A program made the position numbers and the translations under genes. Below are positions 1,697 through 41,595 of a DNA stretch of 64,000 nt, one piece after another. Location of the stretch: contig JAJYIV010000002.1 in NCBI GenBank assembly GCA_021789915.1, positions 613 to 64,612 on the forward strand, in the 5' to 3' direction. Positions within the stretch are counted from its first letter, which is position 1. Each line of letters begins with the position of its first letter. The notes under the pieces are model-generated. The model searched no databases, was not told the DNA's origin, and saw only the letters and a program-made list of their open reading frames with translations. Origin of the DNA: a bacterium (lineage in GTDB: Bacteria > Patescibacteriota > Patescibacteriia > UBA9934 > GWF2-40-263).

Positions 1697-1767
1697 TCGG
1701 GGGTCGTCTAACGGCAGGACAGCAGCCTTTGAAGCTGTGAATCGTGGTTCGATTCCACGCCCCCGAA
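1697..1767 (+). tRNA. tRNA-Gln (anticodon TTG)
   Basis: Cloverleaf folded by hand: acceptor TCGGGGG/CCCCCGA, D-arm GTCT-AACGGCA-GGAC, anticodon arm GCAGC-CTTTGAA-GCTGT, T-arm CGTGG-TTCGATT-CCACG; CCA not encoded. Confidence 0.8.
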
Positions 1768-1782
1768 CGTAGAGCAGGAACG

Positions 1783-1814
1783 CATCCGACCGGACAACCG
1801 GCCGGATGTTTTCG
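1783..1814 (+). terminator. Hairpin plus T-run downstream of tRNA-Gln
   Basis: CATCCGACCGG-ACAA-CCGGCCGGATG followed by TTTTCG. Confidence 0.5.
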
Positions 1815-2117
1815 TCGCCTGTTGATATCTCGCGCCGACGGGAAAAATGCGGCTTGTGGATAAGGTCGCCGACCGTCCGTTTTTCAAGCATTGACGGCAC
1901 GTTGAGAGGTTGCACGCGCGGCGGTATCCTAAAGAGTGTTCGATGCGATGACGCCCCGTCGTCCGATGGCCGCTGCCGCTCATGCGTGTTTCCCGCCGAG
2001 GAACGCCGCGGAGCGTTGGCTTGAAATCGCCCAGGGAGGCACCGCGAAGGTTCCCCTTGTTCCTCTGGCGGTTTTTTTGCGCCGCCGATTCCCCTTTTTT
2101 CCGCGTTTATTCATCGT

Positions 2118-3944
2118 ATGTCCACCCAGACCCTCGTCCATCAAGACCCCGTCGTCTGCTCCATCGACCCGATCTCGACCATTGACGAGTATATCCACCA
2201 GGCCGACTGGCGGGTCAACGCGAACGCCAACCAGGGGTATTCGCTGGGCGGCATGATCCTGAACACCGTCGGCAAGGTGGTGGCGAATTACTGGCTTAAC
2301 AAGATTTACACCAAGGACATACGCGACGCGCATGTCCAGGGGGATTTTTACATCCACGATTTGGACGTGTTCGCCGGCTACTGCGCGGGGTGGAGCCTGC
2401 GCCAGCTGCTGGAGGAGGGCTTCAACGGCGTGCCGGGCAAGGTGGAATCGCTGCCGCCCAAGCACTTGGAGACGGCCGTGGCGCAGATGGTGAACTTCTT
2501 CGGCACGCTGCAGAACGAATGGGCGGGCGCCCAGGCGTTCTCCTCGTTCGACACGTACCTGGCGCCCTTCGTGAAGAAAGACCAGATGACCTACGAGGGC
2601 GTGAAGCAGTGCATCCAGCAATTCGTCTTCAACCTCAACGTCCCGTCGCGCTGGGGCACGCAGACGCCGTTCACCAACATCACGCTGGACTGGGTGTGCC
2701 CGGAGGACATGCGCGAGCGCCATCCGCTGGTCGGCGGCGAAGAGCAGCCGTTCACGTACGGCGATTGCCAAAAGGAGATGGACGCCATCAACAAGGCCTT
2801 CATCGAAGTCATGATCGCAGGCGACGCCAAGGGCCGCATCTTCACCTTCCCCATCCCGACCTACAACATCACGCGCGATTTCGACTGGGAAAACCCGAAT
2901 GTCCAGGGCCTGTTTGAAATGACGGCCAAATACGGCACGCCGTACTTCCAGAACTTCATCAATTCCCCGCTCAATCCGAGCGATGTGCGCAGCATGTGCT
3001 GCCGCCTGCAGCTCGACCTGCGCCAGCTGCGGCAGCGCGGCGGCGGCCTCTTCGGCTCGGCGGAGATGACGGGCTCCGTCGGCGTCGTCACCATCAACAT
3101 GGCGCGCCTGGGCCACGTTTCCAAGTCGAAAGAGGAGTTCTTCACGCGGCTGGACCGGCTGATGAAGCTGGCGAAAGAATCGCTGGAGCTCAAGCGCGAG
3201 ACGGTGGAGGACAATGTCCGACGCGGCCTGCTGCCGTTCACGCGCCGCTACCTGCCGTCGCTGCACAATCATTTTTCGACGATCGGCTTGAACGGCGTAA
3301 ACGAGGCGTGCCGGAATTTCTTCGGCGGCGACACGGACATCGCTTCGCCGGAAGGCAAGCAGTTCGCCGCGGACATCCTGGACTTCATGCGCAAGCGCTT
3401 GGCCGATTTCCAGGAAGAGACGGGGCACTTCTACAATCTCGAGGCCACGCCGGCGGAGGGCACGACGTACCGCTTCGCCAAGGAGGACCAGAAGCGCTTC
3501 CCCGACATCATCCAGGCCGGCACGACGGAGAATCCGTACTACACCAATTCGACGCACCTGCCCGTGACGCACACGGACAATCCGCTGGAAGCGCTGGACC
3601 ACCAGGACAGCCTGCAGACGATGTACACCGGCGGCACCGTGCTGCACCTGTTCCTCGGCGAACGCGTGCAGGATTGGAAGACGTGCCGCGCATTCGTGAA
3701 GAGCGTCGCCTACGGCTACCGCCTGCCGTATTTCACGATCACGCCGACGTTCAGCGTCTGTCCGTCGCACGGCTACCAATCCGGCGAACACCAGTGCTGC
3801 CCCACCTGCGGAGCCACCTGCGAAATCTGGTCGCGCATCGTCGGCTATTTCCGCCCTGTCGACCAGTGGAACCGCGGCAAGAAAGGCGAGTATGCCGAAC
3901 GCAAGGAATACGCGGTGCCGAACGCGTGCGAGACCTGCGTATGA
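2118..3944 (+). CDS. nrdD: Anaerobic ribonucleoside-triphosphate reductase (class III RNR)
   Basis: 608 aa; C-terminal glycyl-radical motif RIVGYFRP and a CxxC...CPTCG zinc site; stop overlaps the nrdG start (ATGA). Confidence 0.9.
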   Translation: MSTQTLVHQDPVVCSIDPISTIDEYIHQADWRVNANANQGYSLGGMILNTVGKVVANYWLNKIYTKDIRDAHVQGDFYIHDLDVFAGYCAGWSLRQLLEEGFNGVPGKVESLPPKHLETAVAQMVNFFGTLQNEWAGAQAFSSFDTYLAPFVKKDQMTYEGVKQCIQQFVFNLNVPSRWGTQTPFTNITLDWVCPEDMRERHPLVGGEEQPFTYGDCQKEMDAINKAFIEVMIAGDAKGRIFTFPIPTYNITRDFDWENPNVQGLFEMTAKYGTPYFQNFINSPLNPSDVRSMCCRLQLDLRQLRQRGGGLFGSAEMTGSVGVVTINMARLGHVSKSKEEFFTRLDRLMKLAKESLELKRETVEDNVRRGLLPFTRRYLPSLHNHFSTIGLNGVNEACRNFFGGDTDIASPEGKQFAADILDFMRKRLADFQEETGHFYNLEATPAEGTTYRFAKEDQKRFPDIIQAGTTENPYYTNSTHLPVTHTDNPLEALDHQDSLQTMYTGGTVLHLFLGERVQDWKTCRAFVKSVAYGYRLPYFTITPTFSVCPSHGYQSGEHQCCPTCGATCEIWSRIVGYFRPVDQWNRGKKGEYAERKEYAVPNACETCV

Positions 3945-4627
3945 GGATCGCTGGGTTCCAGCCGCTGTCCCTGCTCGATTTCCCCGAACGCCCCTGCGCC
4001 GTCGTCTTCACGCAAGGGTGCCCCTTGCGCTGCCCGTTCTGCCATAATCCGGGGCTCATCCCGAACGGCCCGGGGAAGATGCGCGCGGACGAGGTCCTTT
4101 CCGAGCTGGAACGCCACGCGAACACCGTCGCCGCCGTCTGCGTCACCGGCGGCGAGCCGACCGTGCAGCCGGACCTTCCGGCCTTTTTGCGCCTGCTCAA
4201 GCTGCGCGGCTTCGCCGTGAAGCTTGACACCAACGGCGTGCACCCGCGCATGGTCGCCCGCCTGCTCTCCGACCGTCTGGTCGACTACGTCGCCATGGAT
4301 TTCAAACACCGGTGGAGCGCCTACGCGGGGCTTACGAAGGCCGCGGCGCCGGCCGTCGAACACATCCGCCGGACGTTTTCCCTGCTGCAGCAAAGCGGCG
4401 TTCCGCACGAGTTCCGCACGACCGTCGTCCCCGCCTTCCACACGGCGGAAGACCTTGAACGCATGGCCGTGGAGCTTGCGCCGGGAACGTCGTGGGCCTG
4501 GCAGCCGGTGCGCTACGGCATCACGTACGATCCGAACCTCCCGAAGGGGGAAATGCCGCCGCTGGAAGAGATCCGCAGCCGCATCCTGGCGGCGCATCCC
4601 GATCTCTCGATTACGATTCGCCGCTGA
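3941..4627 (+). CDS. nrdG: Anaerobic ribonucleotide reductase activating protein (radical SAM)
   Basis: CPLRCPFCHN radical-SAM cysteine motif; translationally coupled to nrdD. Confidence 0.85.
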   Translation: MRIAGFQPLSLLDFPERPCAVVFTQGCPLRCPFCHNPGLIPNGPGKMRADEVLSELERHANTVAAVCVTGGEPTVQPDLPAFLRLLKLRGFAVKLDTNGVHPRMVARLLSDRLVDYVAMDFKHRWSAYAGLTKAAAPAVEHIRRTFSLLQQSGVPHEFRTTVVPAFHTAEDLERMAVELAPGTSWAWQPVRYGITYDPNLPKGEMPPLEEIRSRILAAHPDLSITIRR

Positions 4628-4666
4628 CAAAAACGGATCCGCGCGCGGATCCGTTTTTGTTGCCTT

Positions 4667-5584
4667 TCACACCCGCAGGTACCGCCGCATGGCAAGCGAC
4701 GTCGCGATCAGGTTCAGGATGGCGAGCGCGGCGAATTGCCCGCCGAAGATGAGCAGCCAGTTCTGCTGGAAATACGCGACGAGCCCCGTCTGGTAGCCGG
4801 CGCCGAGGAACACGTCGAGCTTCGGCTCCATCACGGCCACGGTCGGCAGCACGATGGCGACGACCACGAGCGTCGCGAGCAGGCTGTAGAACACGGCCTC
4901 GGCCAGGAACGGCCCCTTGACGAAGCGATCGGTGGCGCCTACCAGCTTCATGATGCCGATTTCCTCGCGGTGGATGAAAATGCCCATGCGCACCGTGTTG
5001 AACACGATGAGGACGGCGATCGCGAGGAACAACGCGGCGATGCCGATGCCCAGCGCGCGCGCCCGGTCCGTCAGGAAGCGGATGCGGTCGATGAGCTGGG
5101 AATAATTGCCGAAGTCCTTCTCGCGGATCTGGTCCTGGAATTGCGGATCCTGCAGCGCCTGGAGGATCACCGGAAAATCGTCCGCCGCGCGCGCCTTGAC
5201 GATGAGCGACGGCCCGAACGGATTGCCGCCCACTTCCGCGAGCGATTTCATGATGGCGTCCTCGCCGGCGTGCCGCGCCTTGAACTGGGCCAGGGCCTGA
5301 TCCGCCGTGACCGTCTCCACGTCCCGCACCTGCGGCAGGTTGCGCAGCTGCCCGGCGGCGGCCGTCAACTGGTCCGTCGTCACCTCCGGCTTGAAGTATA
5401 CGGACACTTCGACGCGGTCCTCGACCGCCTGGATGGCTTTCTGCGCCACGTGGTTCAGGACGACGAGGATGTTCACTGACAGAAGCGTCAGGGCAAGCAT
5501 GCTGACGGTGACGACGGACAGCCAGAAATTGCGCCAAAAGTTCTGGAACGCGAATTTCAGCACGCGCAGGAGGGGCGCCGTCAT
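4667..5584 (-). CDS. ftsX: Cell division ABC transporter permease FtsX
   Basis: 305 aa; 4-TM FtsX-like architecture; overlaps ftsE by 4 nt. Confidence 0.8.
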   Translation of the reverse strand: MTAPLLRVLKFAFQNFWRNFWLSVVTVSMLALTLLSVNILVVLNHVAQKAIQAVEDRVEVSVYFKPEVTTDQLTAAAGQLRNLPQVRDVETVTADQALAQFKARHAGEDAIMKSLAEVGGNPFGPSLIVKARAADDFPVILQALQDPQFQDQIREKDFGNYSQLIDRIRFLTDRARALGIGIAALFLAIAVLIVFNTVRMGIFIHREEIGIMKLVGATDRFVKGPFLAEAVFYSLLATLVVVAIVLPTVAVMEPKLDVFLGAGYQTGLVAYFQQNWLLIFGGQFAALAILNLIATSLAMRRYLRV

Positions 5585-6261
5585 AGTCGGTATTTTCCCT
5601 CTTCGACGTCCGAGACGATCCGGCCGCCGTCGAGGGCGATCACGCGCTTTTTGAGGCCGTTCACGACTTCGCGATTATGCGTCACCAGCACGACCGTGGT
5701 GCCGAACTCGTTGATCTTGCGCAGCAGCTCCATGATTTCGCGCGTGTTGATGGTGTCCAGGTTGCCGGTGGGCTCGTCGGCCAGCAGGATTTTGGGGCGG
5801 TGGACGAGCGCGCGGGCGATCGCGATGCGCTGCTGTTCGCCGCCGGACAGCTGCCTGGGGAAACGGTCGGCCTTGTCCTGAAGGTTCACGATGCGCAGGA
5901 CCTGCGGGACGATGTCGCGCACGCGCTCCAGCGGCAATCCGGAGACTTCCAGCGCGAACGCGATGTTCTCCGCCACCGTTTTGCGCTGGAGGAGCTTGAA
6001 ATCCTGGAACACGACGCCGATCTGCCGGCGCAGGAGCGGAACGTCGCGCTCGCGGATGCGGGTGATGTCCCAGCCGCCGACCACCACCTGACCTTCCGTC
6101 GGATGCTCCTCCGCGAACATGAGCTTGGCGAGCGTCGTCTTGCCCGTGCCGCTTTGGCCCACGATGGAAACGAATTCCCCGGCCTTGATATGCAACGAGA
6201 CGTCGCGCACGGCCGCGACGTTCGGATGGTAGATTTTGGTGACGTTCTTGAAGCGGATCAT
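5581..6261 (-). CDS. ftsE: Cell division ATP-binding protein FtsE
   Basis: Walker A GQSGTGKTT, ABC signature LSGGEQQR, Walker B ILLADEP; start taken at MIRFKNV. Confidence 0.85.
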   Translation of the reverse strand: MIRFKNVTKIYHPNVAAVRDVSLHIKAGEFVSIVGQSGTGKTTLAKLMFAEEHPTEGQVVVGGWDITRIRERDVPLLRRQIGVVFQDFKLLQRKTVAENIAFALEVSGLPLERVRDIVPQVLRIVNLQDKADRFPRQLSGGEQQRIAIARALVHRPKILLADEPTGNLDTINTREIMELLRKINEFGTTVVLVTHNREVVNGLKKRVIALDGGRIVSDVEEGKYRL

Positions 6262-6311
6262 GCCGTCTTGCGATTGGTCGGAACGTCGGCTATTATAGCG
6301 CACGCCATCGC

Positions 6312-6510: not shown

Positions 6511-7686
6511 CTATGGTTCGCCGCGCGGGCGCAACAGCCACAGGACGGCGGCGACAGCCGCGAGCAGCGCGCCGCAAACCGTCCATGTCAATCGGATCGT
6601 GTCCGGCCCGTCGAGAAAGCGGCGGTCGGCAAGCCACAAGACAAGCGGCACGACGGTGAAACCGGCTTTCGCGGCGAATGAATGAAGCGATCCGGCGGTG
6701 GCGCGGTAGGCGCTTTCCACGCGACGGTGGATGAAGCGGTCCGTAAGCGGTTGGAAGGATCCGCGCGGCAGCTCGTGCAGCGCGAGCAGCGCCAGGAAGC
6801 CGACGCGGCCGCCGGAGAGCGGCAAGGCCAGCATTGCCAGCCCTGCGACGCCCATCGATACCGCCGTCGCGGCCGCGTCGTGCATGCCGGCGTCGGCCAA
6901 CCGCGGCATCAACAGGCCGCCGATGGAAGAGGCGAGGCACATTCCCGCAAAGACCAGGCCCAGGCGCGCGCGGCCGAACAGCCGTTCGGCATACGGCGCC
7001 CAAAAATAATTGATCCCGGCCACGAGGCCAAACGCGAACAGGCAGGCGGCGATCCATCGCAGCGCGCGCTGCGCGCGCAGGGCGCCGATCGCGCGTGCGA
7101 ACGCCTCCGTGCATGGCAGGCGATGCGCCGGATCGCCACGTCCGCGCATGCGCGTGCGCACGAACGCGACGAGTACGGGCGCGCACAAGAGTTCGGGAAC
7201 CCAGATCGCCCGTAGATGCCATGCGCCCAGCCAGCCGCCAAACGCGCCACCGGCCATCATGGCCAGGCCGCGCGCCGCGGACGCGCGGCCAAGAACGCCG
7301 CCGATATTTTCTCCATGGCCTTCGGCATGCAGCGTATCTACGAGCCATGCCTGCAGCGCGCCCGACTCGAACGCGAGACCGGCGCCTAGGACGATCTCCG
7401 CCGTCAGCGCCGAACCGAGCCCGCGCGCCAGCAGGTACGCGAGCGCGCCGGCGAACCGGATGACAGCACCCACGGCTAGCGTTCGCGCGCGCCCGAAACG
7501 ATCCGCCGCGAGACTCGTCGGAACGTCCATGGCAATCACGGCCGCACTGAAGAAACCGTTGATGAGCGCCACCTGGCCCAAGGTCAGGCCGATGGATCGC
7601 AGGAACGGCACGTAGTCCGCCATGGACATGGCAATGCCGAACGTGCTCAAGAATGCGAACGTCACGTACGTGCGCGCAGCGCGCAT
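6511..7686 (-). CDS. MFS transporter
   Basis: 391 aa, about 12 predicted TM helices, typical MFS loop composition. Confidence 0.7.
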   Translation of the reverse strand: MRAARTYVTFAFLSTFGIAMSMADYVPFLRSIGLTLGQVALINGFFSAAVIAMDVPTSLAADRFGRARTLAVGAVIRFAGALAYLLARGLGSALTAEIVLGAGLAFESGALQAWLVDTLHAEGHGENIGGVLGRASAARGLAMMAGGAFGGWLGAWHLRAIWVPELLCAPVLVAFVRTRMRGRGDPAHRLPCTEAFARAIGALRAQRALRWIAACLFAFGLVAGINYFWAPYAERLFGRARLGLVFAGMCLASSIGGLLMPRLADAGMHDAAATAVSMGVAGLAMLALPLSGGRVGFLALLALHELPRGSFQPLTDRFIHRRVESAYRATAGSLHSFAAKAGFTVVPLVLWLADRRFLDGPDTIRLTWTVCGALLAAVAAVLWLLRPRGEP

Positions 7687-19051: not shown

Positions 19052-19477
19052 TTACGACGCCAGCCCGAGCTTTGCCTCGACGACCTGCAAACGCCCCTCG
19101 AAGCGATCCATCCGCAAGGTCGGCGCGACCAGCTCCTGCTCGATCGTCAGCTGCAGCCGCGCCACCTGGTCGCTCACGGCAAGGACTTCCTGACGAACGT
19201 CTTGAAGATCCTCCTTTGTCGCGAAACGGTCGAAATCGTCTTTCGTGGCAAAGTTCTGCAGATCGTCTTTCGTGGCAAAGTTCTGCAGATCGTCTTTCGT
19301 GGCAAAGTTCTGCAGATCGTCTTTCGTGGCAAAACGGTCGAAATCGGCCTTCATTGCCACATTCTCCTTTACGAAACCGATGAATTCGTGCATTTCCGAC
19401 GTTAAACCTTCGACCTTCCGTTCAAGGCCATCGAACTTCTGCGCCAGCTGATTTGTCGTCAGGTGTTCCTCACTCAT
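19052..19477 (-). CDS. Coiled-coil protein with four tandem 9-aa repeats (FATKDDLQN), low-GC gene
   Basis: 141 aa; encoded by 27-nt tandem DNA repeats; GC clearly below flanking sequence. Confidence 0.6.
   Translation of the reverse strand: MSEEHLTTNQLAQKFDGLERKVEGLTSEMHEFIGFVKENVAMKADFDRFATKDDLQNFATKDDLQNFATKDDLQNFATKDDFDRFATKEDLQDVRQEVLAVSDQVARLQLTIEQELVAPTLRMDRFEGRLQVVEAKLGLAS
19215..19345. repeat. 27-nt tandem repeat (GATCGTCTTTCGTGGCAAAGTTCTGCA, about 4.5 copies) inside a CDS
   Basis: Near-perfect direct copies seen directly. Confidence 0.8.
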
Positions 19478-23343: not shown

Positions 23344-24144
23344 ATGATTTCCGAGACGAAGATCGAGATCGTCACGCACGTAACGATAGAGGAACAGCCC
23401 GGCCGGAACGTCTGCGCGAACGACTATCGCAGCATTCTGCCACGACCCAACGACGACGGCATCCTGCTCGACCGGGAGACGGTCGAGCGCTTGTTCGCCG
23501 CGACGGATCTCGATGCGTTCCTCTCGTCCCTGCCGGGAATCTCGACGGATACGTGGCACCGTCACGCCGTCCTCGCGAACGTCATCAAGTTCTCGGAACC
23601 GACGGACGGAAACGCGTTCGGCATCGTCCTCGCCTGGACGACGAAGCGCCACCCCGCCTTCGGCGGCGATCCGACGAGCATGATGGATTACGCCATCGGC
23701 GTGCTCCCCGTGCCGACCGAAACGGCGGCGGTGGCCGCGAAGCTCTTCGCGCGCCGCTCGCTCCTGGCGGACTTGAAACTCGACGACCGCGGCCAGCGCG
23801 AACGGCAGGAGGAAATCCTGAAGGCCATCGGATGGGACGACGGAGCCGAGACCGCGCAGGCGCTGCGCGCGCTGCGCGAGGAGATGATGAGACGCTTGGA
23901 CGAGCTCACAAAAGCGCTCGAGGCGCGCGAGCGGGCGCGGGTGCAGGCCGTCCTCGGCTTGGCCGGCGTGTCGAGCGCTCAGCTCGACGCGCGCGTCGCG
24001 GACGTCGATGGTCAGCTCGACGCGGCGTTCAATGCGATGGCGACGGATCCGAAGCGGCTCGAACCTACGGCGCTCGCGAAGTGCGAGCTCGACATCTACG
24101 GCGCCGTTCCGCCCATCCTGCACGCAAGACTCACGGCCCAATAG
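23344..24144 (+). CDS. Hypothetical protein (266 aa)
   Basis: SD GGAGGG 6 nt upstream of ATG; GC3-rich; no family recognised. Confidence 0.5.
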   Translation: MISETKIEIVTHVTIEEQPGRNVCANDYRSILPRPNDDGILLDRETVERLFAATDLDAFLSSLPGISTDTWHRHAVLANVIKFSEPTDGNAFGIVLAWTTKRHPAFGGDPTSMMDYAIGVLPVPTETAAVAAKLFARRSLLADLKLDDRGQRERQEEILKAIGWDDGAETAQALRALREEMMRRLDELTKALEARERARVQAVLGLAGVSSAQLDARVADVDGQLDAAFNAMATDPKRLEPTALAKCELDIYGAVPPILHARLTAQ

Positions 24145-24241: not shown

Positions 24242-24411
24242 AAAGAAAGATTGAGACCTCTGAAAAACTGATGGATTTTCGTTGTCAGCCAAAGGCTGAT
24301 CAGCCTCTGGCTGAAATGGGCTGCCGAGCCCCGCGAACCCTACTGAAACGTAGGGAGAGCGGGGTCGGCGGGCGCCCATGAAACGAAAAGACGCCGTTTT
24401 GCAGAGGTCTC
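24242..24411. ncRNA. Structured element B with 10-bp terminal inverted repeats GAGACCTCTG...CAGAGGTCTC (homologous to element A)
   Basis: Compensatory changes relative to A: CAGCC-UCU-GGCUG versus CCGGC-UCU-GCCGG, and UUUUCGUU/AACGAAAA versus UGUUCGU/ACGAACA; conserved CUGAAAAAC-YGAUGG, AAUGG and UUUUGCAGAGGUCUC segments. Confidence 0.55.
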
Positions 24412-24420
24412 GATTCTTTG

Positions 24421-24456
24421 CAAACCAAACCCCGCCTGGCCTGCAGGCGGGGCGGT
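24421..24456 (-). terminator. Rho-independent terminator on the minus strand (CCCCGCCTGCAGGCCAGGCGGGG + UUUGGUUUG)
   Basis: Perfect GC stem followed by a U-rich tract on the minus strand. Confidence 0.6.
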
Positions 24457-24467
24457 TGGTCCCGGGT

Positions 24468-24543
24468 CGTGGTGGACCTGATGGGAGTCGAACCCACATC
24501 TTATGGTGCTAACTCAGGCGAGGTTACCGTTTCCTCCACAGGC
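24468..24543 (-). ncRNA. tRNA-like element with encoded CCA and a non-canonical anticodon arm (tRNA pseudogene or tRNA-like small RNA)
   Basis: Acceptor GGGCCUG/CAGGUCC (one GU pair), D-arm GAGG-AAACGGUAA-CCUC, T-arm GUGGG-UUCGACU-CCCAU, discriminator A plus CCA; the 21-nt anticodon region cannot form a 5-bp stem. Confidence 0.45.
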
Positions 24544-24654
24544 CCCTATCCCTTCCCCGGGTCATTGGATAACGAAAAATCCCTCAGGCCCTTTCGGACC
24601 ATGGGGGATTCTTCTAGCACCAGGAGCAAGCCGTATGCTCACCTGAGTGACTCA

Positions 24655-24683
24655 AGTAAAACAGATATTTCCGTATTTGTCAA
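24655..24683 (-). promoter_or_regulatory. Sigma-70-like promoter on the minus strand (-35 TTGACA, 17-nt spacer, -10 TTTACT) driving the tRNA-like transcript
   Basis: seen directly; predicted transcript about 220 nt, from about 24648 down to the terminator at 24421. Confidence 0.45.
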
Positions 24684-24739
24684 TCGTCGCGTGTGGACAA
24701 AATGGCGGGCGGAGGTTGACAAATGACTGGGAAGGGGCC

Positions 24740-40470: not shown

Positions 40471-41595
40471 TCAGGAGACGAGGGGACGCGCGATCGCGGC
40501 GGCGAGCGCTTCCATCCCCTGCCCCGTCGCCGCGGACACCGGCGCCACGGCCGCGAAGGCCCCCGCGTCGAACGCCGGGCCAAGGCGTCGCCGCCAATCG
40601 GCGCCGGCGGCGTCGATCTTGTTCACCGCGAGCACGCGCGGCGTTTCCGCGGCGCCCAAGCGCTTCAGGATCTCGTCCACCACGCGCAGATGGTCCGCCG
40701 CATGCGCGTCGGCGGCATCCACGACCTGCACGAGCACGTCGGCGTCCGCCGCCTCCGAGAGCGTCGATGCGAACGCGTTCAAGAGCTCGGGCGGCAGATT
40801 TTGGATGAAGCCGATCGTGTCGGAGACGAGCACCTGGCGCGGCGGCTCGTTCTCTTTCCTTGCGACGTACAGCGAGCCAACGCGCGTGTCGAGCGTGGCG
40901 AAGAGCTCGTCGGCCGCATACTCGCGCCGGCGCGTGAGCCGGTTCAGCAGCGACGTCTTGCCGGCGTTCGTGTAGCCGACGAGCGCCGCCGTGGGCAGGC
41001 CCTGCCGCCGACGCCGTTCCTGGCGCGCGCGACGCATCGTCTGATACCGCGCGAGCTTCTCCCCGACCGCTTCGGCGCGCTCGCGCAGGTGCCGGCGCAT
41101 GATCTCCGTGTTCGTCTCGCCCTTGCCGCGCGTACCGGTGCCGCCGCCCTGGCGCGACAATTCCAGGCCCATGCCGTAGATGCGCGGGCCCATGTGCCGG
41201 ATGCCGGCCAACTCGATCTCCAGCCGCGCCTCCGTCGTGCGCGCGTGCTTGGCGAAGATCTTCAAGATGAGATCGAGGCGGTCCCACACCTGGAGGCCGG
41301 CCGGGCGCAGCGCTTCCGAGAGAAGATAGACTTGCCGCGGCTTGAGCCGGTCGTTGATGACCACGAGCGCCGCCCCGAGCCGCTTCCCTTCCTCGGCCAG
41401 CTGCTCGATCTTTCCCGTACCGAGGAATGTCGCCGGATGCGGCGCCGCGCGGCGCTGATGCGTCTTCACGACGACGATGCCGCCGTACGTGCGCACGAGT
41501 TCTTCCAATTCCTGCAGCCGATCCAAACTCTCCGCCTTCGTGAGCCGCGGCGGGATCAGATCGACGAGAATGGTTTTGAGGAGACGGTCGGCCAT
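40471..41595 (-). CDS. hflX: GTPase HflX
   Basis: N-terminal HflX domain plus G-domain (GYTNAGKTSLLN, DTIGF, NKID). Confidence 0.85.
   Translation of the reverse strand: MADRLLKTILVDLIPPRLTKAESLDRLQELEELVRTYGGIVVVKTHQRRAAPHPATFLGTGKIEQLAEEGKRLGAALVVINDRLKPRQVYLLSEALRPAGLQVWDRLDLILKIFAKHARTTEARLEIELAGIRHMGPRIYGMGLELSRQGGGTGTRGKGETNTEIMRRHLRERAEAVGEKLARYQTMRRARQERRRRQGLPTAALVGYTNAGKTSLLNRLTRRREYAADELFATLDTRVGSLYVARKENEPPRQVLVSDTIGFIQNLPPELLNAFASTLSEAADADVLVQVVDAADAHAADHLRVVDEILKRLGAAETPRVLAVNKIDAAGADWRRRLGPAFDAGAFAAVAPVSAATGQGMEALAAAIARPLVS

What the first reader, a model, noticed from the sequence alone, without database searches (positions are those of the whole stretch)
24421..24700. Promoter-to-terminator transcription unit whose 3' module is a tRNA-like structure with encoded CCA but no foldable anticodon stem
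On the minus strand, a near-consensus promoter (TTGACA, 17 nt spacer, TTTACT) and a clean rho-independent terminator delimit a transcript of about 220 nt. Its last 76 nt form acceptor, D and T arms with the TTCGA T-loop, discriminator A and CCA. The 21 nt where the anticodon arm should be cannot form a stem. The element sits inside the putative island and carries an unusually long leader of about 105 nt. Possible identities are a degenerate tRNA retained as an integration-site remnant, a tRNA-like regulatory RNA, or a real tRNA with an aberrant anticodon arm.
Basis: seen in the sequence. Interest (0 to 1): 0.6.

Follow-up and report, generated by a model that had tools for sequence, protein, structure and literature searches.

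The report
Self-locking alanine-type tRNA-like RNA gene
This is one copy of an apparently undescribed, multi-copy RNA gene of Uhrbacteria (tiny candidate-phyla bacteria): a tRNA-shaped RNA carrying the alanine recognition mark is transcribed together with its own upstream antisense segment, which base-pairs with the region where the anticodon arm should be, so it looks built to accept alanine but not to read codons.

Summary
Window 24683-24420 (- strand) is a promoter-to-terminator unit. Its 76-nt module (24545-24470) has a perfect acceptor stem with G3:U70, A73 and encoded CCA, plus D and T arms, but only 2 of 5 anticodon-stem pairs.

ARAGORN and Rfam call it a tRNA, weakly: 39.8 bits against 60-69 for the window's ordinary tRNAs.

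It is not a relic or a one-off. A genome scan plus a profile search found about 50 homologous units in Uhrbacteria/Patescibacteria MAGs, at least 1-4 per genome and at conserved chromosomal positions. All have the same architecture:
- promoter
- ~100-nt leader
- internal terminator-like hairpin
- flanking stem
- tRNA-like module
- terminator

In every copy the leader carries two blocks complementary to that copy's own D-stem 3' strand, anticodon stem strands and anticodon loop. These pair in 95% of cells, and 16 of 21 pairs show compensatory changes. That is better conserved than the anticodon stem itself (77%).

The loop triplet differs between syntenic, presumably orthologous copies, so it does not look like a codon reader.

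Best reading: a leader-locked, alanine-accepting, non-decoding tRNA-like RNA. Its physiological role is unknown. No Rfam family or paper found describes it.

The parts
24678..24683 (-). -35 box, TTGACA
   Evidence: Read. TTGACA/TTGACG is seen at the same distance in several family members (L024, L030, L033, L036).
24655..24663 (-). Extended -10 box, TG-t-TTTACT, 17 nt after the -35 box
   Evidence: Read. Not called by the consensus scan. The equivalent TGnTTTAAT-like box is conserved in alignment columns ~20-30.
24638..24648 (-). Leader block A' (ACUCAGGUGAG) at the predicted 5' end of the transcript. It is complementary to module positions 23-33 (D-stem 3' strand, N26, 5' strand of the anticodon stem).
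   Evidence: 11-nt run. Family helix 1 is 94.3% paired, with 6 of 10 pairs showing double changes, and N26 covaries with leader column 44. The minimum-energy fold of the whole unit uses this pairing.
24616..24650 (-). P1: the hairpin the leader forms on its own (A' with the start of B', plus an apical hairpin)
   Evidence: Fold of the leader alone. The lower stem is paired in 81.3% of family cells.
24614..24622 (-). Leader block B' (UGGUGCUAG), complementary to module positions 41-33 (3' stem strand and anticodon loop). In the isolated leader this is the single-stranded 'toehold' tail.
   Evidence: 9-nt run. Family helix 2 is 95.7% paired, with 10 of 11 pairs showing double changes. RNAalifold chooses it unguided. 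The tail is unpaired with p = 0.74 here and 0.80 on average.
24574..24614 (-). P2: internal A-tract / GC hairpin / U5, a terminator-like hairpin between leader and module
   Evidence: Present in all aligned copies (GGGG-UUUUU consensus). It has the same style as the genuine terminator after tRNA-Gly in this window.
24556..24561 (-). P3 5' strand (CCCGGG), 10 nt before the module
   Evidence: It pairs with 24466-24461. The stem covaries in the family (e.g. CCCGGAUCG/CGAUCCGGG, UCCUGAGACG/UGUCUCAGGA).
24470..24545 (-). tRNA-like module:
- acceptor 5' strand 24545-24539
- D arm 24536-24520
- anticodon-arm region 24519-24498
- T arm 24497-24481
- acceptor 3' strand 24480-24474
- A73 at 24473
- CCA at 24472-24470
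   Evidence: ARAGORN. Rfam tRNA 39.8 bits. The tmRNA model aligns only the acceptor and T arms. G3:U70 is present in 44 of 44 relatives.
24457..24466 (-). P3 3' strand (CCCGGG) followed by ACCA
   Evidence: By eye, an (N)CCA-like motif follows P3 in most family trailers.
24420..24453 (-). Rho-independent terminator of the unit: 10-bp GC-rich stem and a U-rich tail

Best explanation
The element is one member, with an unusually weak anticodon stem, of a family of stand-alone RNA genes in Candidatus Uhrbacteria and related Patescibacteria.

SHOWN
- Each gene is a single transcription unit: sigma-70-type promoter; ~100-nt leader; internal terminator-like hairpin (P2); a flanking stem (P3) that clamps the module; a 76-78-nt tRNA-like module; terminator.
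- The module keeps everything that makes the top half of a tRNA(Ala): G1-C72, G2-C71, G3:U70, A73, CCA, T arm and the G18G19 D loop.
- The leader carries two blocks, each about one helical turn long. A' lies at the 5' end. B' lies about 5-35 nt later.
- Together the two blocks are complementary to that copy's own positions 22-43: D-stem 3' strand, N26, both anticodon-stem strands and the anticodon loop.
- This cross-pairing is better conserved than the anticodon stem.
- Nearest-neighbour energies favour it by about 19 kcal/mol over 'cloverleaf plus leader hairpin'.
- In the isolated leader, the part facing the anticodon loop is single-stranded and the rest is held in a hairpin.

INFERRED
- The anticodon-like loop nucleates pairing on the leader tail. 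Four-strand exchange then opens the anticodon and D stems.
- The leader is therefore a built-in antisense lock, acting in cis on read-through transcripts.
- It may also act in trans, as the short RNA released at P2 or by RNase P.
- The lock removes the decoding half of the molecule and leaves the acceptor/T minihelix free.
- From established AlaRS biology (own knowledge: G3:U70 suffices even in minihelices), the RNA should be charged with alanine.
- Because the loop triplet drifts between syntenic copies, it is not a codon-specific decoder.
- It is more likely an alanine-accepting RNA whose availability or conformation the leader controls.

UNKNOWN
The physiological use: an alanine donor outside normal decoding, a regulated mistranslator or decoy, or a sensor.
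For: FAMILY AND ARCHITECTURE
- 44 loci from the genome scan.
- Sequences and flanks; alignment A1.
- The profile search finds the window copy at E = 1e-30, plus further copies, a decayed copy and a solo leader.

LEADER-MODULE PAIRING
- Each copy's own leader gives a mean perfect run of 9.3 nt, against 5.3 for non-cognate leaders.
- 95.0% of 908 cells pair. 16 of 21 pairs have compensatory changes, in 189 cells. With the partner slid by 1-3 columns only 26-43% pair. 0 of 500 shuffles reach the observed values.
- Loop position 36 pairs with its leader partner in 44 of 44 sequences through five pair types.
- N26, which is unpaired in any cloverleaf, covaries with the leader.
- The cloverleaf anticodon stem is paired in only 76.8% of cells, and pair 31-39 in 17 of 44.
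- The leader's own lower stem is paired in 81.3% of cells.
- RNAalifold, unguided, selects helix B.

ENERGIES AND ACCESSIBILITY
- Helix A about -18 and helix B about -18.5 kcal/mol, against -9.7 (leader hairpin) and -7.4 (D plus anticodon arms). The net for the window copy is -18.2.
- The toehold tail is unpaired with p = 0.80, against 0.22-0.29 for the sequestered parts.

ALANINE MARKS
- G3:U70 is present in 44 of 44 copies although those positions were free in the search pattern.
- It is also present in three copies found independently of the pattern.

NOT A DECODER
- ARAGORN reads Ser, Thr, Pro, Ala, Leu or SeC triplets.
- Triplets differ within syntenic groups (neighbours identified).
- Members score 32-49 bits on the Rfam tRNA model, against 60-66 bits for ordinary tRNAs in the same loci.

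SPECIFICITY AND AUTONOMY
- Ordinary tRNAs of the window lack the leader and P3.
- No protein gene is consistently linked to the element.

WINDOW COPY
- Complementary blocks of 11 nt and 9 nt; 16 of 20,000 shuffles do as well.
Against: - There are no expression, processing or aminoacylation data, so everything beyond base-pairing is inference.
- The retrieval pattern fixed U8-G9, the D-stem sequence, part of the T loop and CCACCA. Invariance of those positions is not evidence.
- Helices A and B cross each other and the acceptor stem (pseudoknot topology).
- In L030 and L036 only 5-6 nt link A' and B', so it is unproven that both helices can form at once. The energy comparison ignores this and the tRNA tertiary structure.
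- The well-conserved D loop and the 5-bp D stem argue that the cloverleaf form also matters.
- The conserved loop sequence UUG-N-CACC is not explained by pairing alone.
- The data cannot separate cis from trans action.
- The window copy itself deviates from the family:
  - positions 42 and 43 mismatch both the stem partner and the leader;
  - A replaces the U that closes the D stem in 43 of 44 relatives;
  - the leader has GAGC instead of GAGG;
  - P3 has only 6 bp.
  It could be a copy in early decay.
Confidence: 0.55

Rival explanations
1. Feedback attenuator, with T-box-like logic. The mature, free tRNA-like RNA binds the nascent leader of its own gene through the anticodon loop and changes how often transcription stops at the internal hairpin P2. 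Each copy would then set its own level.
For: - The leader tail pairs with the anticodon loop as a T-box specifier does, and it lies directly 5' of a terminator-like hairpin.
- The tail is single-stranded in the isolated leader.
- There is no room for a separate promoter between P2 and the module, so expression of the module must depend on read-through.
Against: - I found no alternative antiterminator pairing.
- No T-box sequence or NCCA-binding bulge is present, and Rfam gives no T-box match.
- The complementarity extends far beyond the loop into both stem strands and the D stem, which a simple loop sensor would not need.
Confidence: 0.15
2. RNA-only toxin/antidote pair. The alanine-charged module is harmful when free, through mistranslation or by sequestering AlaRS, EF-Tu or ribosomes. 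The leader is a labile antisense antidote made in excess because most transcripts stop at P2.
For: - The gene order 'antisense, terminator, effector' resembles type III ToxIN operons (own knowledge).
- Pairing is copy-specific.
- Decayed copies and a solo leader indicate gain and loss of copies.
- The alanine identity is combined with non-alanine triplets.
Against: - Copies sit at conserved chromosomal positions next to housekeeping genes in different species, which looks vertically inherited rather than mobile.
- None was found in viral contigs.
- There is no evidence of toxicity.
- In the canonical register position 37 is C, and many copies have a 9-nt loop, so ribosomal decoding is doubtful.
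Confidence: 0.1
3. This particular copy is a decaying pseudogene of the family, whatever the family does.
For: - It has the weakest anticodon stem in the sample: 2 of 5 pairs, against 3 or more in the copies I tabulated by hand from the sequences.
- Positions 42 and 43 mismatch the leader.
- It has the only A at the D-stem-closing position.
- Its profile score is in the lower range of the family, 104.7 bits against up to 148.
- Clearly decayed copies exist elsewhere (L027:4753-4935; solo leader at L043:5121-5220).
Against: - The promoter, A' (11 contiguous pairs), B' (9 pairs), P2, P3, acceptor stem, T arm, CCA and terminator are all intact.
- Random decay would not spare the 16 other stem pairs.
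- The leader lock is still strongly favoured (-18.2 kcal/mol).
Confidence: 0.1
4. An ordinary, translating tRNA-Ala(AGC) with a slightly imperfect anticodon stem, as the tRNA finders report.
For: ARAGORN calls tRNA-Ala(AGC), and Rfam tRNA passes its gathering score.
Against: - It scores 20-30 bits below the window's real tRNAs.
- The stem has 2-3 of 5 pairs.
- Relatives have Ser-, Thr-, Pro- or Leu-like triplets combined with the same G3:U70.
- The triplets drift between syntenic copies.
- The family-specific antisense leader and P3 are absent from real tRNAs.
Confidence: 0.03
5. An integration-site (att) remnant of a tRNA or tmRNA gene, left by a mobile element.
For: - The neighbouring ORFs are orphans.
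- A metagenome assembly of the same organism breaks just downstream of the unit.
- The tmRNA model aligns to the acceptor and T arms.
Against: - Both acceptor strands and the D and T arms are present.
- There is no second copy of either half in 64 kb.
- The complete unit is conserved family-wide.
- The tmRNA score of 29.8 is below the cut-off of 47, there is no tag ORF, and ARAGORN finds no tmRNA.
Confidence: 0.02

Closest known systems
T-box riboswitch leaders (Rfam RF00230)
   Same: A 5' leader reads a tRNA through Watson-Crick pairing with its anticodon loop, and it sits just upstream of an intrinsic-terminator-like hairpin.
   Different: - Here the partner is the RNA encoded immediately downstream in the same unit, not a cellular tRNA that reports on a downstream amino-acid gene.
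- Pairing covers about 21 nt, including both stem strands and the D stem, rather than 3-4 nt.
- There is no Stem I platform, no T-box sequence, no NCCA-binding bulge and no Rfam match.
tmRNA tRNA-like domain
   Same: Alanine identity (G3:U70, A73, CCA), a canonical T arm, and no functional anticodon. In the locked state the anticodon stem is replaced by helices leading into another RNA segment.
   Different: - No tag reading frame and no pseudoknots.
- A true D stem is present.
- The module is contiguous and tRNA-sized.
- It scores below the tmRNA gathering score and is not called by ARAGORN.
- The gene is multi-copy.
Non-proteinogenic tRNAs that donate amino acids outside translation (e.g. 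staphylococcal tRNA-Gly for cell-wall bridges; Ala-tRNA used by FemX/MurM, alanyl-phosphatidylglycerol synthases and RqcH alanine tailing; own knowledge)
   Same: Extra tRNA-type genes that keep the acceptor identity but carry features that disfavour normal decoding.
   Different: - Those tRNAs keep a normal anticodon arm and alter the D or T loops or the T stem.
- Here G18G19 and the T loop are canonical, the anticodon arm is the deviant part, and a dedicated antisense leader exists.
- No link to such enzymes was tested.
Fold-back and antisense RNA locks of type I toxin-antitoxin systems (hok mRNA fbi element; Sok, CopA and RNA-OUT loop-to-tail recognition through U-turn loops; own knowledge)
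   Same: A hairpin loop with an anticodon-like U-turn nucleates on a single-stranded tail and the helix then propagates. A long-range 5'-3' pairing keeps an RNA inert until it is processed.
   Different: The locked molecule is a tRNA-like RNA, not an mRNA. The antisense lies on the same strand and in the same transcript, as two permuted blocks.
Type III ToxIN-like operons
   Same: The order 'RNA antidote, terminator, effector', in which the terminator would set the ratio of the two products.
   Different: The effector here is an RNA, not an endoribonuclease protein. There are no antidote repeats, and toxicity has not been demonstrated.

Membership tests
Canonical elongator tRNA (Rfam RF00005), specifically tRNA-Ala | Cloverleaf with a 7-bp acceptor stem, 4-bp D stem and 5-bp T stem, and conserved U8, G18G19 and T-loop residues | tested here: met
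   acceptor stem 99.7% and T stem 98.6% paired across the family. The window copy is perfect in all three stems.
Canonical elongator tRNA (Rfam RF00005), specifically tRNA-Ala | A 5-bp anticodon stem closing a 7-nt loop with U33 and a purine at position 37 | tested here: not met
   - Window copy: 2 of 5 pairs in the canonical register.
- Family: stem 76.8% paired; pair 31-39 formed in 17 of 44; C at position 37 in the canonical register, or a 9-nt loop in the alternative register.
Canonical elongator tRNA (Rfam RF00005), specifically tRNA-Ala | An anticodon that matches the acceptor identity and is conserved between orthologues | tested here: not met
   G3:U70 is present in all copies, yet ARAGORN reads Ser, Thr, Pro, Ala, Leu or SeC triplets. 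The triplets differ within syntenic groups.
Canonical elongator tRNA (Rfam RF00005), specifically tRNA-Ala | Score at or above the curated Rfam gathering threshold | tested here: met
   39.8 bits against a cut-off of 29. This is 20-30 bits below ordinary tRNAs in the window and in related loci.
Canonical elongator tRNA (Rfam RF00005), specifically tRNA-Ala | Aminoacylation by AlaRS and use on the ribosome | not testable with these tools
   Only the sequence determinants (G3:U70, A73, G2-C71) can be read.
tmRNA (RF00023 / permuted RF04321) | A tRNA-like domain with alanine identity | tested here: met
   The tmRNA model aligns the acceptor and T arms end to end.
tmRNA (RF00023 / permuted RF04321) | An internal tag reading frame with a resume codon, pseudoknots, and a score at or above the gathering threshold | tested here: not met
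   - Only 21 nt lie between the D and T arms.
- 29.8 bits against 47 for tmRNA, and 13.9 bits for the permuted model.
- ARAGORN reports no tmRNA.
- No conserved stop codon or reading frame is visible by eye in the leaders.
T-box riboswitch | A leader element that pairs with the tRNA anticodon | tested here: met
   Leader block B' pairs with loop positions 33-38, with covariation. This resembles how a T-box works. It does not show homology.
T-box riboswitch | A T-box sequence or antiterminator bulge pairing with NCCA, a Stem I with distal platform, and control of a downstream amino-acid-related gene | tested here: not met
   - No Rfam match at E <= 10 in the window leader, and none at gathering threshold in 13 loci.
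- The base preceding GGUG that would pair with A76 is not conserved (read).
- What lies downstream is the tRNA-like module itself, followed by a terminator.
att-site relic of a tRNA or tmRNA gene | A partial (3') gene segment duplicated from an intact gene, next to integrated DNA | tested here: not met
   The module is full length. Neither half recurs in the window at up to 3 mismatches. The unit is conserved as a whole. Integrase genes were not searched for systematically.
Antisense-locked or toxin-antitoxin-type RNA pair | Extended, specific complementarity between two RNA segments, with a loop-to-single-strand nucleation site | tested here: met
Antisense-locked or toxin-antitoxin-type RNA pair | A harmful effector and a less stable antidote | not testable with these tools
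   Requires expression and half-life measurements.

The most novel reading that the evidence does not exclude
Uhrbacteria maintain several chromosomal copies of a new class of RNA: an alanine-charged tRNA mimic that is kept out of codon reading by its own co-transcribed antisense leader and released on demand. It would work either as a dedicated template-independent alanine donor (for example for ribosome rescue or alanine tailing, or for cell-envelope aminoacylation) or as a switchable mistranslating or decoy tRNA. Either way it would be an RNA-only regulatory module with no protein component of its own.
Probability: 0.3. Interest if true: 0.95.

Novelty: categorically new. Interest (0 to 1): 0.85.

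Why it matters
If the reading is right, this is a new way of controlling a tRNA-shaped molecule. The control is written into the same transcript as a two-block antisense that swaps partners with the D and anticodon stems. The system is protein-free and rests on strong covariation.

It occurs in candidate-phyla-radiation bacteria, whose translation apparatus is already known to be unusual.

It gives a directly testable case of an RNA that keeps the universal alanine mark (G3:U70) but has given up a fixed anticodon. That bears on three questions:
- how cells use aminoacyl-tRNAs outside decoding;
- how mistranslation might be switched on and off;
- how tRNA genes evolve into new RNAs.

There is also a practical point. 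tRNA finders annotate these genes as Ser, Thr, Pro, Ala, Leu or SeC tRNAs, so tRNA inventories and codon-reassignment screens of Patescibacteria genomes are contaminated by them.

Tried and rejected
1. The first genome-contig scan used a wrong pattern: 9 instead of 8 free bases before CCACCA. It did not match even the window. Its zero result is void. The corrected pattern was checked on the window and then run.

2. The single metagenome scan used a looser D-loop/T-loop pattern. None of the 120 loci is a family member. It therefore says nothing about distribution.

3. The viral contig scans found only phage tRNA-Met genes or chance matches inside coding sequence.

4. Synteny through the neighbouring 266-aa ORF failed because it has no homologue other than itself.

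5. Searching for a linked protein gene found none: the best cluster is present in 5 of 45 loci. The recurrent neighbours are BipA, aminoacyl-tRNA synthetases of the ValRS type, ThrRS and SerRS, and a Mur ligase. They are divergently or otherwise unrelatedly placed (checked for L045), and their amino-acid specificity does not track the loop triplet.

6. The apparent window-L037 synteny rests only on MacB-type transporter paralogues in a different arrangement, so I dropped it.

7. The second ARAGORN 'tRNA-Ala' at 40523-40616 lies inside an ORF and gets no Rfam support. It is a false positive, not a partner or an att duplicate.

8. tmRNA, permuted tmRNA, mascRNA and T-box identities were rejected on score and anatomy.

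9. A small ORF or Shine-Dalgarno reading of the conserved leader GAGG was rejected by eye: no conserved start codon or frame.

10. Literature searches found no description of the family.
Full report
WHAT IS IN THE WINDOW

On the minus strand, TTGACA (24683-24678) is followed by a 17-nt spacer and TG-t-TTTACT (24663-24655). A 103-nt leader comes next, then a 76-nt tRNA-like module (24545-24470), a short trailer and a clean intrinsic terminator (24453-24429).

The module has these features:
- acceptor stem GGGCCUG/CAGGUCC with a G3:U70 pair;
- U8;
- D arm GAGG-AAACGGUAA-CCUC;
- T arm GUGGG-UUCGACU-CCCAU;
- discriminator A73 and an encoded CCA.

The 21 nt between the D and T arms (CCUGAGUUAGCACCAUAAGAU) form only two Watson-Crick pairs in the canonical register.

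ARAGORN still calls it tRNA-Ala(AGC) by accepting a 3-of-5 stem. Rfam's tRNA model gives 39.8 bits (cut-off 29), while the three ordinary tRNAs of the window score 60-69 bits.

The tmRNA model aligns end to end, but only through the acceptor and T arms, and stays below its cut-off at 29.8 against 47.

Folded alone, the 76-mer does not adopt a cloverleaf. The whole unit folds more stably than its shuffles (z = -3.5), and its minimum-energy structure pairs the 5' end of the leader with the D/anticodon region.

A second ARAGORN 'tRNA-Ala' at 40523-40616 lies inside an ORF and has no Rfam support. It is a false positive.

CONTEXT

The flanking genes are:
- L9, CTP synthase, a nucleoside-deoxyribosyltransferase-like gene and a 266-aa orphan on one side;
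- a small orphan ORF and a MacB-type ABC transporter on the other.

Neither half of the module recurs in the 64 kb. A related MAG locus (L006, Candidatus Uhrbacteria) is collinear with window 1700-6262 at up to 74% amino-acid identity. The organism is therefore an Uhrbacteria-like member of the Patescibacteria.

An 'island' is not demonstrated. The GC dip at 24-25 kb coincides with the AT-rich promoter and terminator parts of this RNA gene.

A FAMILY, NOT A RELIC

My first pattern was mis-specified, so its zero result is void.

A corrected pattern fixed the unusual D arm, the T loop and CCACCA, and left the acceptor stem and anticodon region free. It found 44 loci in GTDB species genomes. 43 of them are Uhrbacteria or Patescibacteria MAGs, including some TPA records labelled 'uncultured Gammaproteobacteria'. 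The remaining one is an ordinary Actinoplanes tRNA-Met.

Several genomes have 2-4 hits. A profile built from the alignment finds additional copies that the pattern missed. Some have altered D stems, one has a ruined T arm, and one is a leader with no module. The same search shows that the window holds exactly one copy, at E = 1e-30.

Across the 44 aligned sequences:
- G1-C72, G2-C71 and G3:U70 are invariant, although these positions were free in the pattern;
- pairs 4-7 covary;
- acceptor and T stems are 99.7% and 98.6% paired.

ARAGORN names the members Ser(UGA/CGA), Thr(UGU/CGU), Pro(UGG), Ala(UGC), Leu or SeC. Rfam scores them 32-49 bits, against 60-66 bits for ordinary tRNAs in the same loci, and no curated family covers the leader.

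No family member was found in IMG/VR.

The one metagenome scan was swamped by tRNA-Gln-type genes and is uninformative.

THE DECISIVE FEATURE

Every copy has the same unit architecture:
- an extended -10-like box;
- a 5'-terminal block A' (NNNNN-N-UGAGG);
- a variable hairpin or short linker;
- a block B' (NNNNN-GGUGNCAA);
- an A-tract / GC-hairpin / U-tract;
- a UCCCGGG-type box;
- the module;
- a matching CCCGGGA box, usually followed by CCA;
- a terminator.

A' is complementary to the copy's own positions 22-31: the D-stem 3' strand, N26 and the 5' strand of the anticodon stem. B' is complementary to positions 33-43: the anticodon loop and the 3' strand.

Each copy's own leader gives a mean perfect run of 9.3 nt (up to 13) at a constant distance. 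Non-cognate leaders give 5.3 nt.

On the alignment, the 21 leader-module pairs behave as follows:
- they are standard pairs in 95.0% of 908 cells;
- 16 pairs show changes on both sides, in 189 cells;
- 0 of 500 shuffles reach the observed values;
- only 26-43% of cells pair when the partner is slid by 1-3 columns.

The loop positions, which have no partner in a cloverleaf, pair with the leader. Position 36 gives UA 25, AU 9, CG 5, GC 3 and GU 2, with none unpaired. N26 covaries with its leader partner.

By contrast, the cloverleaf anticodon stem is paired in only 76.8% of cells, and pair 31-39 in 17 of 44. The leader's own lower stem is paired in 81.3%.

RNAalifold, run without guidance, chooses helix B rather than the anticodon stem. 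It also reveals a 5-bp D stem: the closing U-A or U-G pair is present in 43 of 44 sequences, while the window has A·A.

The flanking stem P3 also covaries, for example CCCGGAUCG/CGAUCCGGG, UCCCGAGUCG/CGACUCGGGA, UCCUGAGACG/UGUCUCAGGA and UGUCGAUUU/AAAUCGGCA.

Ordinary tRNA genes of the window, and a genuine tRNA-Gly(GCC) of L007, have none of this.

HOW IT PROBABLY WORKS

Nearest-neighbour energies put helices A and B at about -18 and -18.5 kcal/mol. The structures they replace are the leader hairpin (-9.7) and the D plus anticodon arms (-7.4). The leader-bound state is therefore favoured by roughly 19 kcal/mol in essentially every copy, and by 18.2 in the window copy. This ignores tertiary and topological terms.

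In the isolated leader, the tail facing the anticodon loop is single-stranded (mean unpaired probability 0.80). A', the GAGG box and the stem-complementary part of B' are mostly sequestered (0.22-0.29).

This is the layout of loop-to-tail antisense pairs. An anticodon-like U-turn loop nucleates on a free tail, and the helix then spreads by strand exchange. Here the exchange involves four strands, because the leader hairpin and the anticodon hairpin have complementary stems.

I infer that the leader is a built-in lock. It removes the D and anticodon half of the module while leaving the acceptor/T minihelix exposed. That minihelix carries all the sequence marks that, by established knowledge (my own, not tested here), suffice for charging by alanyl-tRNA synthetase.

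The internal terminator-like hairpin leaves no room for a separate promoter. The module can therefore be made only by read-through, and a short leader RNA is expected to be produced in excess. Whether the lock acts in cis, in trans or both cannot be decided from sequence.

NOT A CODON READER

Copies that share three or more neighbouring gene clusters sit at the same chromosomal position in different species. Examples are positions next to a ValRS-type synthetase, next to SerRS and next to a Mur ligase.

Within these groups the variable loop base differs: GUC against GAC, UCAC against GCC, and GAC against GGC. The flanking UUG and CACC are kept, and the leader changes in step.

A decoding tRNA would keep its anticodon, and that anticodon would fit its identity. 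Here an invariant alanine mark is combined with drifting triplets.

In the canonical register position 37 is C. In the alternative register (U32 U33 G34 N35 C36 A37 C38) the loop looks like that of a GNC tRNA, but it carries two extra 5' nucleotides.

THE WINDOW COPY IN PARTICULAR

A' pairs with positions 23-33 (11 contiguous pairs) and B' with 41-33 (9 pairs). Only 16 of 20,000 shuffled leaders do as well.

The leader block CCUGGUGCUA is identical to that of L039. The L039 module has the same UUAGCAC loop and an intact stem (…CACCAGG). The window module instead reads …CACCAUA.

The 'missing' stem therefore comes down to two positions (42, 43), which mismatch both the 5' strand and the leader.

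Three further deviations leave open that this copy is drifting: A instead of U at the D-stem-closing position, GAGC instead of GAGG in A', and a minimal 6-bp P3. All other parts are intact.

COMPARISON WITH KNOWN SYSTEMS

- It fails the membership tests for a canonical tRNA (anticodon arm, anticodon conservation).
- It fails for tmRNA: no tag frame or pseudoknots, and a sub-threshold score.
- It fails for T-box leaders: no T-box sequence, no platform and no regulated gene.
- It fails for att relics: the module is full length and unique in the window.
- It works most like antisense or fold-back locks, with a T-box-like anticodon contact and a ToxIN-like 'RNA, terminator, effector' order.
- It shares with tmRNA and with non-proteinogenic tRNAs the idea of an aminoacyl acceptor that does not decode.

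Rfam 15 has no model for the leader. Six full-text searches, including a 2026 survey of tRNA genes in 95 complete Patescibacteria genomes, turned up no description. A report outside the searchable library cannot be excluded.

LIMITS

- The sample was ascertained with a pattern that fixes part of the D arm, the T loop and the 3' end.
- Simultaneous formation of both helices is topologically unproven, since L030 and L036 have linkers of only 5-6 nt.
- The conserved UUG-N-CACC loop and the NCCA-like motif after P3 remain unexplained.
- Nothing is known about expression, processing, charging or phenotype.

VERDICT

The relic and ordinary-tRNA readings are rejected. The element belongs to a structurally well-supported and, as far as I can find, undescribed class of leader-locked alanine-type tRNA-like RNAs.

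Noticed in passing
window 40523-40616 (-): ARAGORN calls a 94-nt 'tRNA-Ala(GGC)' here. It lies inside an ORF and gets no Rfam tRNA match, so it is a false positive and not a partner of the element.
   Followed up: partly
window ~24330-24357: An ENA metagenome assembly of the same organism (ERZ27233565) breaks into two contigs that abut or overlap here, immediately downstream of the unit's terminator. This could reflect strain variation or a repeat at this point.
   Followed up: partly
window 23344-24144 (+): The convergent 266-aa ORF next to the unit has no homologue other than itself among 5.8 billion clustered proteins, and no Pfam domain.
   Followed up: yes
window 19052-19477 (-): A 141-aa ORF with tandem 9-residue repeats (FATKDDLQN, about four copies) and no Pfam match.
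   Followed up: no
L021:57-121 (-) and L045:2767-2816 (+): In two otherwise unrelated loci the same sequence (AAATCTGACTTT…GGCGGCGCAAAGC) starts directly after the module's CCA and replaces the usual trailer and P3 3' strand. This looks like a mobile element inserted at the 3' end of the tRNA-like gene.
   Followed up: no
L007:2465-2492 (+) and L049:53-80 (-): A 28-nt insert (CGTCGTTCGCGAACGACGTGGTCCACCA) directly after the CCA. It consists of a small hairpin plus a repeat of the module's last 9 nt (GGTCCACCA), which looks like a target-site duplication.
   Followed up: no
L043:5121-5220 (+) and L027:4753-4935 (+): L043 holds a solo leader (A', B', P2 and the CCCGGG box) with no tRNA-like module after it. 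L027 holds a copy whose T arm has decayed, next to an intact copy. The family gains and loses copies.
   Followed up: partly
Trailers of most family loci, e.g. window 24457-24466 and L033, L034, L038: The 3' strand of the flanking stem P3 is usually followed by ACCA, UCCA or AUCA. This forms a second, outer 'stem plus NCCA' end nested around the module. It may be an RNase P or 3'-end determinant. Unexplained.
   Followed up: partly
L008:2040-2075, L026:1610-1650 and L042 (trailer of the copy at 6801-6876): Several trailers carry an extra conserved hairpin (…GGCUGGCAAGCC…) between the CCA and the P3 3' strand.
   Followed up: no
Metagenome loci L055-L174: Many ordinary tRNA-Gln genes share a D arm (GGUGUAAUGGUAACAC) that resembles the family's GGAGGUAAYGGUAACCUC. 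This is a possible hint to the evolutionary origin of the module's 5' half.
   Followed up: no
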